Below, piece by piece: positions 262 through 55,710 of a DNA stretch of 64,000 bases. The notes beneath the pieces were generated by a model. The model was not told the DNA's origin and ran no database searches. It saw nothing but the letters and a program-made list of their open reading frames with translations. Location: NCBI RefSeq assembly GCF_009914755.1, contig NC_060935.1, one strand, 5' to 3'. Position 1 is the first letter of the stretch; each line of letters starts with the position of its first letter. Origin of the DNA: the human T2T-CHM13v2.0 reference genome, Homo sapiens. The position numbers and the translations under genes were made by a program.

Positions 262-3200
262 GAGAGAGCGCCAAGATGGCCGAATACGAACAGCTCCGGT
301 CTACAGCTCCCAGCGTGAGCGATGCAGATGATGGGTGATTTCTGCATTTCCATCTGAGGTCCCGGGTTCATCTCACTAGGGAGTGCCAGACAGTGGGCGC
401 AGGACAGTGGGTGCAGCAAACCATGAGTGAGCCGAAGCAGGGCGAGGCACTGCCTCACTTGGGAAGCACAAGGGGTCAGGGAGTTCCCTTTCCTAGTCAA
501 AGAAATGGGTGACAGACAGCGCCTGGAAAATTGGGTCACTCCCACCCTAATACTGCGCTTTTCCGATGGGCTTAAAAAACAGCTCACCAGGAGATTATAT
601 CCCGCACATGGCTCAGAGGGTCCCACGCCCACGGAATCTCACTGATTGCTAGCACAGCAGTCTGAGATCAAACTGCAAGGCAGCAGCGAGGCTGGGGATG
701 GGGTGCCCACCATTGCCCAGGCTTGCTTAGGTAAACAAAGCAGACAGGAAGCTCGAACTGGGTGGAGCCCACCACGGCTCAAGGAGGCCTGCCTGCCTTT
801 GTAGGCTCCACCTCTGGGGACAGGGCACAGACAAACAAAAAGACAGCAATAACCTCTGCAGACTGAAATGTCCCTGTCTGACAGTTTTGAAGAGAGCAGT
901 GGTTCTCCCAGCACGCAGCTGGAGATCTGAGAACCGGCAGACTGCCTCCTCAAGTGGGTCCCTGAACCCTGACCCCCGAGCAGCCTAACTGGGAGGCACC
1001 CCCCAGTAGGGGCAGACTGACACCTCACATGGCTGGGTACTCCTCTGAGACAAAACTTCCAGAGTAACGATCAGACAGCAGCATTCACAGTTGATGAAAA
1101 TCCACTGTTCTGCAGCCACCGCTGCTGATACCCAGGCAAACAGCATCTGGAGTGGACCTCTAGCAAACTCCAACAGACCTGCAGCTGAGGGTCCTGTCTG
1201 TTAGAAGGAAAATTAACAAACAGAAAGGACATCCACACCAAAAACCCATCTGTACATCACCATCATCAAAGACCAGAAGTAGATAAGACCAAAAAGATGG
1301 GGAAAAAACAGAGCAGAAAAACTGGAAACTCTAGAAAGCAGAGCACCTCTCCTCCTCCAAAGGAACGCAGTTCCTCACCAGCAACGGAACAAAGCTGGAT
1401 GGAGTATGACTTTGATGAGTTCAGAGAAGGTGGCTTCAGATGAACAAACTACTCTGAGCTACAGGAGGAAATTCAAACCAAAGACAAAGAAGTTAAAAAC
1501 TTTGAAAAAAATTTAGATGAATGTATAACTAGAATAACCAATACAGAGAAGTGCTTAAAGGAGCTGATGGAGCTGAAAGCCAAGGCTCAAGAACTATGTG
1601 AAGAATGCAGAAGCCTCAGAAGCTGATGCAATCAACTGGAAGAAAGGGTATCAGCGATGGAAGATGAAATGAATGAAATGAAGTGAGAAGGGAAGTTTAG
1701 AGAAAAAAGAATAAAAAGAAATGAACAAAGCCTCCAAGAAACATGGGACTATGTGAAAAGACCAAATCTACGTCTGATTGGTGTGCCTGAAAGTGACGGG
1801 GAGAATGGAACCAAGTTGGAAAACACTCTGCAGGATATTATCCAGGAGAACTTCCCCAATCTAGCAAGGCAGGCCAACATTCAGATTCAGGAAATACAGA
1901 GAATGCCACAAAGATACCCCTCGAGAACAGCAACTCCAAGACACATAATTGTCAGATTCACCAAAGTTGAAATGAAGGAAAAAATGTTAAGGGCAGCCAG
2001 AGAGAAAGGTCGGGTTACCCACAAAGGGAAGCCCATCAGACTAACAGTGGATCTGTCGCCAAAAACACTACAAGCCAGAAGAGAGTGGGGGCCAATATTC
2101 AACATTCTTCAAGAATTTTCAACCCAGTATTTCATATCCAGCCAAACTAAGCTTCATAAGTGAAGGAGAAATAAAATACTTTACAGACAAGCAAATACTG
2201 AGAGATTTTGTCACCACCAGGCCTGCCCTAAAAGAGCTCCTGAAGGAAGCACTAAACATGGAAAGGAACAACCGATACCAACCACTGCAAAATCATGCCA
2301 AATTATAAAGACCATCCAGGCTAGGAAGAAACTGCAACAACTAACAAGCAAAATAACCAGCTAACATCATAATGACAGGAACAAATTCACACATAACAAT
2401 ATTAACTTTAAATGTAAATGGACTAAATGCTCCAATTAAAAGACACAGACTGGCAAATTGGATAAAGAGTCAAGAACCATCAGTGTGCTATATTCAGGAA
2501 ACCCATCTCATGGGCAGAGACACACATAGGCTCAAAATAAAAGGACGGAGGAAGATCTACCAAGCAAATGGAAAACAAAAAAAGGCAGGGGTTGCAATCC
2601 TAGTCTCTGATGAAACAGACTTTAAACCAACAAACATCAGAAGAGACAAAGAAGGCCATTACATAATGGTAAAGGGATCAATTCAACAAGAAGAGCTAAC
2701 TAATTATACTAAATATATATGCACCCAACACAGGAGCACCAAGATTCATAAAGCAAGTCATGAGTGACCTAGAAAGAGACTTAGACTCCCACACAATAAT
2801 AATGGGAGACTTTAACGCCCCACTGTCAACATTAGAGAGATCAATGAGACAGAAAGTTAACAAGGATATCCAGGAATTGAACTCAGCTCTGCACCAAGCA
2901 GACCTAATAGACATCTACAGAACTCTCCACCCCAAATCAACAGAATATACATTCTTTTGAGCACCACACCACACCTATTCCAAAATTGACCACATACTTG
3001 GAAGTAAAGCTATCCTCAGCAAATGTAAAAGGACAGAAATTATAACAAATTGTCTCTCAGACCACAGTGCAATCAAACTAGAACTCAGGATTAAGAAACT
3101 CACTCAAAACCACTCAACTACATGGAAACTGAACAACCTGCTCCTGAATGACTACTGGGTACATAATGAAATGAAGGCAGAAATAAAGATGTTCTTTGAA

Positions 3201-54700: not shown

Positions 54701-55710
54701 ATCTAATTAAACTAAAGAGCTTCTGCACAGCAAAAGAAATTACCATCAGAGTGAACAGGCAACCTACAGAATGGGAGAAAATTTTCACAACCTACTCATC
54801 TGACAAAGGGTTAATATCCAGAATCTACAATGAACTCAAACAAATTTACAAGAAAAAAACAAATAACCCCATCAACAAGTGGGTGAAGGATATGAACAGA
54901 CACTTCTCAAAAGAAGACATTTATGCAGCCAAAAGACACATGAAAAAAATGCTCATCATCACTGGCCGTCAGAGAAATGCAAATCAAAACCACAGTGAGA
55001 TACCATCTCACACCAGTTAGAATGGCCATCATTAAGAAGTCAGGAAACAACAGGTGCTGGAGAGGATGTGGAGAAATAGGAACACTTTTACACTGTTGGT
55101 GGGACTGTAAACTAGTTCAACCACTGTGGAAGTCAGTGTGGTGATTCCTCAGGGATCTAGAACTAGAAATACCATTTGTCCCAGCCATCCCATTACTGAA
55201 TATATACCCAAAGGATTATAAATCATGTTGCTATAAAAACACATGCACATGTATGCTTATTGCAGCACTATTTACAATAGCAAAGACTTGGAACCAACCC
55301 AAATGTCCAACAATGATAGACTGGATTAAGAAAATGTGGCACATATACACCATGGAATACTATGCAGCCATAAAAAAGGATGAGTTCGTGTCATTTGTAG
55401 GGACATGGATGAAGCTGGAAACCATTATTCTCAGCAAACTATTGCAAGGACAAAAAACCAAACACCGCATGTTCTCACTCATAGGTTGGAATTGAACAAT
55501 GAGAACACATGGACACAGGAAGGGGAACATCACACACCGGGGCCAGTTGTGGGGTGGGGAGACAGGGGAGGGATAGCATTAGGAGATATACCTAATGTTA
55601 AATGACGAATTAATGGGTGCAGCACACCAACATGGCACATGTATACATATGTAACTAATCTGCACGTTGTGCACATGTACCCTAAAACTTAAAGTATAAT
55701 TTTAAAAAAA
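51769..55710 (+). mobile_element. 5'-inverted (twin-primed) L1 (L1-D): minus arm ~51769-53283, plus arm ~53285-55710
   Basis: ORF track 52294..53289 (-) and 53268..53780 (+) meet at the inversion; arms nearly contiguous in L1 coordinates. Confidence 0.92.

What the first reader, a model, noticed from the sequence alone, without database searches (positions are those of the whole stretch)
262..55710. Neighbouring L1s share variants in incompatible combinations: a local gene-conversion network
Seen: L1-1 and L1-4 share WFHVCK (CCATGTATGC at 4091-4100 and 33968-33977), [20 protein letters not shown] and MSKRAKA. At the first site L1-3 and L1-B instead share FNTRK (17642-17651, 27710-27719), plus GCLLSP and QLEKEE, while L1-D has FNIRK. 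Only ~100-250 bp upstream the partners swap: L1-B and L1-4 share LFPSIEK and KILKKIL, while L1-1 and L1-3 share TTCCAGTCA. L1-1 and L1-3 also share NILQE, DLERD, IQSTI and NRCCRG. L1-3 and L1-D share ATACGCATGGG; L1-4 and L1-D share KSQGFL and NKRC; L1-3, L1-A and L1-B share CTAGAACTACC. The splits (1,4|3,B) and (1,3|4,B) cannot both fit one tree, and the elements differ in age class. Inference: repeated short-tract ectopic conversion after insertion, between both direct and inverted copies within ~55 kb. That these alleles are non-consensus rests on my memory of L1.
Basis: partly seen in the sequence, partly recalled or inferred. Interest (0 to 1): 0.8.

Follow-up and report, generated by a model that had tools for sequence, protein, structure and literature searches.

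The report
Neighbouring L1 repeats swapped short patches
Old L1 retrotransposon copies lying near each other on human chromosome 11 carry the same very rare sequence variants, some found nowhere else in the genome, which is best explained by the copies having pasted short patches of DNA into one another after they inserted.

Summary

About half of the incompatible splits are ordinary L1 subfamily variants. Of 57 informative sites at L1-1 coordinates 2466-4600, 26 have both alleles at 10% or more in 29 unlinked L1 copies. The rest cannot be explained that way.

- The L1-1/L1-4 allele is carried by 2 of 11,236 genomic copies, both in the window.
- An L1-1/L1-D two-base variant occurs twice genome-wide, both in the window.
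- A two-site haplotype of L1-1, L1-B and L1-4 occurs six times genome-wide, all within 237 kb of chr11, on different subfamily backgrounds.

L1-1 and L1-4 are no closer overall than unlinked copies (94.3%). Their flanks differ. Sharing is confined to patches of tens to about 300 bp.

Best reading: repeated short-tract non-allelic gene conversion among nearby L1s. This is a known kind of process, here unusually dense and far-reaching. Timing and direction need ape orthologues.

Carriers of these rare alleles also cluster elsewhere in the genome. A small unbiased control at 55-473 kb showed no excess.

The parts
270..6412 (+). L1-1, full-length L1PA-type copy. It carries the most alleles that match its neighbours.
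   Evidence: Self-BLAST. 8 alleles unique within its subfamily match L1-3, L1-D or L1-B; the other 26 unlinked copies show 0-5, apart from one mosaic copy with 8.
15332..21514 (-). L1-3, full-length copy of an older subfamily background; likely donor of the 2772G/3202G and 4112-4139 patches.
   Evidence: An unlinked copy of the same background (L033) carries 2772G+3202G.
31668..37686 (-). L1-4, full-length copy of the same subfamily background as L1-1. It has its own target-site duplication and a private 123-bp 5'UTR deletion.
   Evidence: AAAAATTAGTGTT on both sides; 0 of 29 unlinked copies lack that segment.
26296..28978 (.). L1-B, 5'-inverted copy: 26296-28105 on the minus strand, 28097-28978 on the plus strand.
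   Evidence: Shares 3858C, 4001G and 4179A with L1-4.
51768..55716 (.). L1-D, 5'-inverted copy: 51768-53282 on the minus strand, 53285-55716 on the plus strand.
   Evidence: Shares the genome-unique 4523T/4526G with L1-1.
24969..26215 (+). L1-A, 3' fragment.
50345..51342 (+). L1-C, internally deleted 3' fragment. Shares 4741C with L1-B, L1-D and two copies outside the window.
47550..48085 (-). L1-E, short 3' fragment.
8810..13860 (+). Older L1 (about 82% identical to the young copies), used as outgroup to polarise alleles.
4084..4409 (+). Patch in L1-1 shared with L1-4 (about 33655-33985 on the minus strand). It holds the rare alleles 4092C, 4095G, 4129G, 4243G and 4401T.
   Evidence: The 20-mer at 4086-4105 and 33963-33982 gives 2 matches genome-wide. 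At 4000-4299 L1-1 and L1-4 differ at 12 sites, fewer than either differs from any of 25 unlinked copies (minimum 15).
4099..4198 (+). Sub-patch where L1-1 matches L1-3 at 4112C, 4113A, 4129G and 4139T, against its own subfamily.
   Evidence: 22 of 28 unlinked copies read T,G,A,A there. The 25-mer at 4118-4142, 17600-17624 and 33926-33950 accounts for 3 of 4 matches genome-wide.
4513..4537 (+). Two-base variant 4523T/4526G shared by L1-1 and L1-D (53811-53835).
   Evidence: 2 matches genome-wide, both in the window. 0 of 26 unlinked copies carry either base.
4988..5015 (+). Two-site haplotype 4994C+5012C in L1-1, also in L1-B (26789-26816, minus strand) and L1-4 (33057-33084, minus strand).
   Evidence: 6 matches genome-wide, all on chr11 at 63,176,131-63,412,754.

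Best explanation
The window holds eight independently inserted L1PA-type copies on at least two subfamily backgrounds. After insertion, DNA breaks in one copy were repeatedly repaired using a nearby L1, direct or inverted, as template. This is non-allelic gene conversion.

Each event pasted a short patch, from tens of bp to about 300 bp. The patch carried the donor's private mutations, and sometimes its subfamily-diagnostic bases, into the recipient. Repeated events between different partners built a mosaic in which neighbouring sites support incompatible groupings.

The exchanging set is larger than the window. At least three more L1s, 115-126 kb upstream and 47 kb downstream, share the same genome-unique haplotype.

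Shown: identity by descent of rare alleles between neighbours, across subfamily backgrounds, in short patches, without flank homology.

Inferred: the repair mechanism, that it followed insertion, the donor/recipient directions (L1-3 to L1-1 for 2772G/3202G and for 4112-4139), and the dates.
For: 1. Genome-wide exact counts of shared alleles:
- 2 of 11,236 copies for L1-1/L1-4
- 2 matches for L1-1/L1-D
- 3 of 4 matches for L1-1/L1-3/L1-4
- 6 of 6 matches within 237 kb of chr11 for 4994C+5012C
- 4 of 66 and 6 of 43 carriers of 4826C and 4741C lie on chr11 at 63.06-63.43 Mb

2. The six carriers of 4994C+5012C sit on different subfamily backgrounds and are only 89-94% identical to the window copies.

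3. Rare-allele sharing per pair is 3.7 for window pairs, 0.46 for unlinked pairs and 0.63 for window-to-unlinked pairs. L1-1 and L1-4 have 7 and 6 derived alleles that are unique within their subfamily and match L1-3, L1-D or L1-B. The 26 unlinked copies have at most 3.

4. L1-1 and L1-4 are not sister copies. They are 94.3% identical, while L1-1 is 93.5-95.1% and L1-4 is 94.3-95.7% identical to unlinked copies. They are closer than every unlinked copy only at 4000-4299.

5. Multi-marker patch: L1-1 matches L1-3 at four sites within 28 bp, against its own subfamily.

6. The homoplasy (PHI) test gives p=0.0005 at about 100 bp and is not significant at 300 bp. That fits very short tracts.

7. 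The flanks of L1-1, L1-3 and L1-4 differ, and L1-4 has its own target-site duplication.

8. The kind of process is documented. Alu-Alu conversion among neighbours is reported within about 10 kb (PMC6598467 parts 1-2 read; PMC8230782 passages read). L1-templated break repair in cell culture gave tracts as small as 13 bp (passage in PMC1920257 citing Tremblay et al. 2000; that paper itself was not held).
Against: - No ape orthologues were available, so the state before conversion, the timing and the direction are not observed.
- Single-base shared alleles recur elsewhere: 49, 40, 226, 19 and 29 copies. For L1-1/L1-3 the plain count (5) is not far above what L1-1's higher divergence predicts (about 2.4 by my scaling).
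- The double variant 5354G/5356G of L1-1/L1-4 also occurs at a chr1 locus of another subfamily type. Not every multi-base variant is therefore proof of descent.
- The 2772G+3202G haplotype also exists in one unlinked copy that is duplicated on five acrocentric arms.
- In 200-bp windows L1-1 and L1-4 are almost never the nearest relatives of L1-3, L1-D or L1-B: 3 of 77, 0 of 39 and 0 of 14 windows. Cross-subfamily patches must therefore be very short.
- Site 4095 carries two different derived bases in two neighbour pairs. It is a former CpG, so some recurrent mutation is mixed in.
- No GC bias was seen in the shared alleles.
- The unlinked sample (29 copies) was picked as relatives of L1-1. It represents the L1-3/B/D background poorly and thins to 6 copies beyond coordinate 4650.
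Confidence: 0.75

Rival explanations
1. No exchange took place. All sharing comes from L1 subfamily and sub-subfamily structure fixed before insertion, plus recurrent (especially CpG) mutation.
For: 26 of 57 informative sites have both alleles at 10% or more in unlinked copies, and 9 more at 1-9%. Most (1,4|3,D) sites are the majority allele of the L1-1 subfamily. 2957C/2971G/2975T of L1-3/L1-D are also in the unlinked copy L033. Single-base alleles recur 19-226 times. One unlinked copy (L006) is itself a subfamily mosaic.
Against: Haplotypes with 2 or 6 copies in the whole genome, all within this chr11 region, cannot come from retrotransposition to random sites. Their carriers have different subfamily backgrounds. 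0 of 406 unlinked pairs reach the 7 shared rare alleles of L1-1/L1-4.
Confidence: 0.07
2. The copies are paralogues made by local DNA duplication of L1-bearing segments in the tandemly duplicated SLC22A cluster, so they share mutations that predate the duplication.
For: The window lies in a tandem gene cluster. It holds an SLC22A9-like remnant: 23762-31502 and 49422-50019 match 57524-60297 and 62685-63283 at 67-75% identity.
Against: That paralogy is far older (67-75% identity) than the L1s (92-95%). No non-L1 homology flanks the L1s. The 5' and 3' flanks of L1-1, L1-3 and L1-4 differ and L1-4 has its own target-site duplication. L1-1 and L1-4 are no closer overall than unlinked copies.
Confidence: 0.03
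3. Exchange is real but goes through RNA or cDNA. Transcripts of one L1, for example inside a long primary transcript, template patch repair of a nearby L1, rather than DNA-DNA recombination.
For: Conversion through cDNA is documented for yeast Ty and Tf2 elements (review PMC6598467, part 2 read). Patches are very short. Several regional copies lie inside or next to SLC22A transcription units (hub annotation).
Against: Nothing here tests it. Both orientations take part. No such pathway is established for old, non-coding L1 copies in the primate germ line, as far as I recall.
Confidence: 0.1
4. Assembly or polishing artefact: reads from one L1 were used to correct another.
For: None found.
Against: The copies differ by 5-9%, far too much for long-read mis-mapping. 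The shared alleles sit among many retained differences. An artefact would not be confined to one region. Independence from the assembly could not be checked with a second genome.
Confidence: 0.02

Closest known systems
Non-allelic gene conversion among neighbouring Alu elements (Zhi 2007; Aleshin and Zhi 2010, as described in PMC6598467 and PMC8230782)
   Same: Non-diagnostic mutations are shared preferentially by nearby copies of a dispersed retroelement. The result is mosaics of subfamily-diagnostic sites. The effect falls off with distance.
   Different: Here the elements are 6-kb L1s, not 300-bp Alus. One haplotype spans copies 237 kb apart, against the roughly 10 kb range reported for Alu. 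This is a single region, not a genome-wide statistic.
[quoted passage not shown]
   Same: L1 copies serve as ectopic repair templates, and tracts can be very short (13 bp is quoted).
   Different: That was an induced break in cultured somatic cells. Here the events are germ-line, fixed, and inferred from sequence alone.
Gene conversion among LTRs on the human Y chromosome (Trombetta et al. 2016, as summarised in PMC6598467)
   Same: Clusters of derived alleles are transferred together between dispersed repeat copies.
   Different: That work detected the events as polymorphism within a population. Here they are fixed differences in one assembly.
L1 subfamily succession (L1PA ladder) with diagnostic substitutions (Khan et al. 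2006, recalled, not consulted)
   Same: It explains the dominant split (L1-1, L1-4 against L1-3, L1-D) and about half of the informative sites.
   Different: It cannot place genome-unique alleles in neighbouring copies of different subfamilies.

Membership tests
Non-allelic (ectopic, interlocus) gene conversion between dispersed repeats | Variants shared by two loci are identical by descent, yet are not inherited from a common source copy. | tested here: met
   Alleles with 2, 2, 4 (3 local) and 6 (6 regional) copies genome-wide. Carriers sit on different subfamily backgrounds. L1-1 and L1-4 are not sisters overall.
Non-allelic (ectopic, interlocus) gene conversion between dispersed repeats | Several adjacent markers are transferred together in a bounded tract. 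| tested here: met
   4112C-4113A-4129G-4139T in L1-1 matches L1-3, bounded by retained differences at 4098 and 4199. 4092C/4095G/4129G/4243G/4401T are shared by L1-1 and L1-4. 4994C+5012C. PHI is significant only at about 100 bp.
Non-allelic (ectopic, interlocus) gene conversion between dispersed repeats | The loci are independent, with no shared flanks. | tested here: met
   Self-BLAST alignments stop at the L1 ends. Flanks differ and L1-4 has its own target-site duplication. Target-site duplications of L1-1 and L1-3 were not resolved.
Non-allelic (ectopic, interlocus) gene conversion between dispersed repeats | Transfer is non-reciprocal, with the donor unchanged, seen by comparison with the state before conversion. 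| not testable with these tools
   No ape or ancestral sequence is held. The direction L1-3 to L1-1 is only inferred, from an unlinked L1-3-type copy carrying 2772G+3202G.
Non-allelic (ectopic, interlocus) gene conversion between dispersed repeats | Frequency falls with distance between copies. | tested here: inconclusive
   Dense sharing at 3-45 kb in the window. One haplotype reaches 237 kb. 14 control neighbour pairs at 55-473 kb share 1 rare allele in all. There are too few pairs for a curve.
Non-allelic (ectopic, interlocus) gene conversion between dispersed repeats | GC-biased transmission (frequent, but not defining). | tested here: not met
   W>S against S>W is 12 against 12 in shared alleles and 544 against 609 in singletons, Fisher p=0.84.
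Ordinary L1 subfamily-diagnostic variation | Both alleles are common among unlinked copies genome-wide. | tested here: not met
   Met for 26 of 57 informative sites. Not met for 21, of which 3 are L1-3/D-background alleles. It is therefore true of part of the finding only.
Segmental-duplication paralogues | Homology extends into the flanks, and identity is raised along the whole copy. | tested here: not met

The most novel reading that the evidence does not exclude
L1 copies in certain neighbourhoods behave as regional gene pools. Micro-patches of tens of bp pass between copies up to hundreds of kb, perhaps a megabase, apart and across subfamilies. That is far beyond the roughly 10 kb reported for Alu, and it is concentrated in 'hot' regions such as this SLC22A cluster.

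In support:
- The carriers of all six single-site alleles whose places I tabulated cluster genome-wide. For example, 30 of 66 carriers of 4826C have another carrier within 250 kb, against about 0.8 expected.
- Seven carriers of 5012C lie within 470 kb on chr2 and show reticulate sharing.

Against generality:
- 14 unselected neighbour pairs at 55-473 kb showed no excess.
- Old segmental duplications were not excluded for the clusters outside chr11.
Probability: 0.35. Interest if true: 0.7.

Novelty: new member of a known kind. Interest (0 to 1): 0.5.

Why it matters
L1 copies are widely used as neutral clocks and as subfamily markers. If neighbouring copies trade patches this often, three things follow.
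- Divergence-based ages, subfamily calls and 'intermediate' subfamilies are partly products of conversion.
- Mutation spectra inferred from repeats are contaminated by copied mutations.
- Dense L1 neighbourhoods mark places of recurrent ectopic repair, the same substrate that causes rearrangements.

The region-exclusive haplotypes found here give concrete markers. They can be followed in ape and human long-read assemblies to measure rate, tract length and reach of L1-L1 conversion.

Tried and rejected
1. L1-1 and L1-4 as sister copies, parent and offspring, or a duplication. Rejected: they are 94.3% identical, no more than to unlinked copies, and closer only at 4000-4299.

2. A C>G (break-repair-like) signature in the shared alleles. 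My first impression came from reading the list by eye. The systematic test gave 5 of 25 against 215 of 1533, Fisher p=0.38. Dropped.

3. GC-biased conversion. Not significant.

4. Distance scans in 200-bp windows for L1-1 or L1-4 against L1-3, L1-D and L1-B. Almost no windows where they are the nearest. This method is insensitive to very short patches.

5. Looking for L1 copies in viral contigs. One match, not an L1.

6. Large samples of 100 unbiased L1 copies. I worked instead with the 29 loci and small fetches.

7. One search used 8 Ns instead of 7 and counted the wrong register. This was my slip, corrected.

8. A control region at chr1 49.28-49.82 Mb. Its 12 copies proved mostly much older L1 families (69-88% identity), so the comparison says nothing.

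9. The double variant 5354G/5356G as proof of descent. Weakened, because it also occurs at a chr1 locus of another subfamily type.

10. Earlier findings of this scan were not open to the session.

11. Papers. Searches found reviews of TE gene conversion centred on Alu. In these listings I found no genome-wide study of L1-L1 conversion among neighbours. That is not evidence that none exists.
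Full report
**What is in the window**

The window is G000:C11:63302001-63366000. Self-BLAST shows eight young L1PA-type copies:
- L1-1 270-6412 (+), full length
- L1-3 15332-21514 (-), full length
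- L1-A 24969-26215 (+)
- L1-B 26296-28105 (-) joined to 28097-28978 (+), a 5' inversion
- L1-4 31668-37676 (-), full length
- L1-E 47550-48085 (-)
- L1-C 50345-51342 (+)
- L1-D 51768-53282 (-) joined to 53285-55716 (+), also 5'-inverted

There are also older copies, one of which (8810-13860, about 82% identical) I used as outgroup. The young copies are 92-95% identical to each other. No tool here assigned subfamily names, so I use none.

**The observation**

A search for all 17 peptides and 4 k-mers reproduced 20 of 21 sharing statements. CTAGAACTACC is in L1-A and L1-B but not in L1-3.

An alignment of all copies has 150 parsimony-informative sites. About half of all pairs of informative sites are mutually incompatible.

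**How much is plain subfamily structure**

A DNA search of the whole genome with L1-1 returned 29 unlinked loci, L003-L031. 26 of them have the L1-1/L1-4 background and 3 are nearer to L1-D/L1-B.

At most sites of the dominant split (L1-1, L1-4 against L1-3, L1-D) the unlinked copies carry the L1-1/L1-4 allele, while L1-3, L1-D and the old outgroup agree with each other. So L1-1 and L1-4 simply belong to a younger subfamily than L1-3 and L1-D.

The 57 informative sites between L1-1 coordinates 2466 and 4600 break down as follows:
- 26 have both alleles at 10% or more among the 29 unlinked copies
- 9 have the minor allele at 1-9%
- 1 had too few unlinked copies to classify
- 21 have one shared allele absent from all 29

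Three of those 21 (2957C, 2971G, 2975T of L1-3/L1-D) are also in an unlinked copy of that background.

Only 4092C and 4095G are rare.

**What subfamily structure cannot explain**

Exact-pattern counts over the whole 3.1-Gb genome:

| Shared allele | Carriers in window | Genome-wide count |
|---|---|---|
| 20-mer with 4092C/4095G | L1-1, L1-4 | 2 of 11,236 copies with intact flanks, both in the window |
| 25-mer with 4523T/4526G | L1-1, L1-D | 2, both in the window |
| 25-mer with 4129G (and 4139T) | L1-1, L1-3, L1-4 | 4, three in the window |
| 28-mer with 4994C and 5012C | L1-1, L1-B, L1-4 | 6, all on chr11 |

The six matches of the 28-mer start at 63,176,131, 63,186,533, 63,306,988, 63,328,789, 63,335,057 and 63,412,727. 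That is the three window copies plus three copies 126 and 115 kb upstream and 47 kb downstream of the window.

I fetched those three copies. They are ordinary diverged L1s, 89-94% identical to the window copies. They have different backgrounds at diagnostic sites, and they share further rare alleles with window copies and with each other.

4826C (L1-3, L1-B, L1-4) has 66 carriers, 4 of them on chr11 at 63.06-63.34 Mb. 4741C (L1-B, L1-C, L1-D) has 43 carriers, 6 of them at 63.06-63.43 Mb.

Retrotransposition scatters copies over the genome. It cannot place all carriers of a rare haplotype in one neighbourhood on several subfamily backgrounds.

**Statistics with an empirical null**

I counted alleles carried by exactly two sequences in a pool of 29 unlinked and 5 window copies:
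- window pairs: 3.7 per pair (10 pairs, maximum 7 for L1-1/L1-4)
- unlinked pairs: 0.46 per pair (406 pairs, maximum 3)
- window-to-unlinked pairs: 0.63 per pair (145 pairs)

The pairs L1-3/L1-D and L1-3/L1-B are inflated, because their background is poorly sampled.

A test free of that problem asks how many alleles, unique within the L1-1/L1-4 subfamily, match L1-3, L1-D or L1-B. L1-1 has 8 (7 not ancestral) and L1-4 has 7 (6 not ancestral). The 26 unlinked copies have 0-5, apart from one mosaic copy, L006, with 8 (3 not ancestral). None exceeds 3 non-ancestral.

**Not duplicates, and the patches are short**

L1-1 and L1-4 are 94.3% identical. That is the same as L1-1 to unlinked copies (93.5-95.1%) and less than L1-4 to them (94.3-95.7%).

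In 300-bp windows L1-1 and L1-4 are closer than every unlinked copy only at 4000-4299: 12 differences against a minimum of 15. This is where 4092C, 4095G, 4129G and 4243G lie.

Inside that stretch L1-1 equals L1-3 at 4112C, 4113A, 4129G and 4139T. 22 of 28 unlinked copies read T, G, A, A there. The patch is bounded by retained differences at 4098 and 4199. This is a multi-marker tract of at most about 100 bp.

The runs of perfect identity around shared rare alleles are 4-119 bp. The PHI test is significant at about 100 bp (p=0.0005; 0.03 without CpG sites) and not at 300 bp.

The flanks of L1-1, L1-3 and L1-4 differ. L1-4 has its own target-site duplication, AAAAATTAGTGTT.

**Direction**

The haplotype 2772G+3202G, shared by L1-1 and L1-3, has 7 matches genome-wide. 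They are the window pair plus one copy present on five acrocentric arms. That copy has the L1-3/L1-D background.

The G alleles are therefore probably a lineage variant of L1-3's source, and L1-1, of the other subfamily, received them. The intervening diagnostic sites of L1-1 are unchanged, so this needs two separate short patches or patchy repair. This is inference.

**Evidence that cuts the other way**

- Single-base shared alleles are not unique: 3202G has 49 copies, 3858C 40, the L1-3/L1-B allele 226 of 11,236, 4243G 19 and 4001G 29. These counts are about what recurrent mutation over roughly 10,000 copies would give, by my estimate.
- The double variant 5354G/5356G of L1-1/L1-4 also occurs at a chr1 locus of another subfamily type.
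- Site 4095 carries G in L1-1/L1-4 and C in the two upstream copies. Older L1s read CG at 4094-4095, so it is a former CpG.
- Window scans by plain distance find almost nothing for cross-subfamily pairs.
- Two signatures I thought I saw did not survive systematic tests: an excess of C>G changes and a GC bias.

**Is this region special?**

The carriers of the six rare alleles whose places I tabulated are clustered throughout the genome. For 4826C, 30 of 66 have another carrier within 250 kb against about 0.8 expected under random labelling of L1 copies. The figures are 18 of 43 for 4741C, 12 of 40 for 3858C and 10 of 49 for 3202G. The null uses L1 density from 100 copies on chr1.

5012C alone has 219 carriers, with groups such as seven within 470 kb on chr2. 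Those seven are 94-97% identical over 700 bp and again show reticulate sharing. I did not check their flanks, so old duplications are not excluded there.

Against a universal effect, I took 15 copies of the L1-1/L1-4 subfamily from five chr1 neighbourhoods, chosen only by subfamily allele and proximity. Their 14 neighbour pairs, 55-473 kb apart, share 1 rare allele in all over 700 columns. The null is 0.03-0.09 per pair. L1-1/L1-4, 25 kb apart, share 4 in the same columns.

So either the effect falls steeply with distance, or it is concentrated in certain regions, of which this is one. An earlier control region was unusable because its copies were much older families.

**Comparison with what is known**

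Non-allelic gene conversion between transposable-element copies is established. Reviews describe it mainly for Alu, with an effective range of about 10 kb, and for LTRs (PMC6598467, parts 1-2 read; PMC8230782, passages read).

L1-templated repair of a chromosomal break with tracts down to 13 bp is quoted in PMC1920257 (passage read), citing Tremblay et al. 2000, which was not held.

My four searches did not list a genome-wide study of conversion among neighbouring L1s. That does not show that none exists.

**Verdict**

Three corrections apply: about half the listed incompatibility is ordinary subfamily variation, the patches are very short, and the exchanging set extends to at least 237 kb.

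It is a dense, well-marked instance of a known process. The open and more interesting question is how far and how unevenly such exchange reaches across the genome.

Noticed in passing
window 23762-31502 and 49422-50019 against 57524-60297 and 62685-63283: Non-L1 self-homology at 67-75% identity to SLC22A9 exons 1-2 and the exon 5 region. It looks like the remnant of an older SLC22A-type paralogue between SLC22A10 and SLC22A9, later broken up by L1-A, L1-B, L1-4 and older L1s.
   Followed up: no
window about 36903-36907 (L1-4), corresponding to L1-1 1044-1166: L1-4 lacks a 123-bp stretch of the 5'UTR that L1-1, L1-3 and all 29 unlinked copies have. The deletion is private. From memory only, it lies near the part of the L1PA 5'UTR bound by ZNF93.
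   Followed up: partly
window 26296-28978 and 51768-55716: L1-B and L1-D each consist of an inverted 5' piece abutting a 3' piece in sense orientation. This is the structure expected from twin priming.
   Followed up: no
window about 6413-6500: An Alu-like sequence sits directly after the A-rich tail of L1-1, so its 3' target-site duplication is displaced.
   Followed up: no
L006 (G000:C6:53240619-53247603): This unlinked L1 has the L1-1 subfamily background but carries the other background's diagnostic alleles as a block at coordinates 3311-4199. It is either a subfamily intermediate or a conversion product at another locus.
   Followed up: no
G000 C13:5754199, C14:2083195, C15:2490100, C21:3091952, C22:4777445: The same L1 copy, with 2772G+3202G, is present on five acrocentric short arms. 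It is one insertion spread by the acrocentric duplications.
   Followed up: partly
G000 C1:12348541-12775536: Four L1 copies within 430 kb share an otherwise unseen allele (CCACTTAY) at the WFN-K site. The region may be a segmental duplication.
   Followed up: no
genome-wide lists: Carriers of rare L1 alleles fall into groups of 2-10 copies within 10 kb to 2 Mb on many chromosomes, in both orientations. Examples are chr4 72.9-74.8 Mb, chr9 19.7-22.2 Mb, chr1 80.2-80.8 Mb and chrX 74-77.5 Mb. This is far more than random labelling predicts.
   Followed up: partly
L034 and L035 (chr11 63,176,131 and 63,186,533; 126 and 115 kb upstream of the window): These two inverted L1s, 10 kb apart, share 3911A, 4095C and 4690A, absent from all unlinked copies that cover those sites (28, 28 and 6). 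This is another exchanging pair in the same region.
   Followed up: partly
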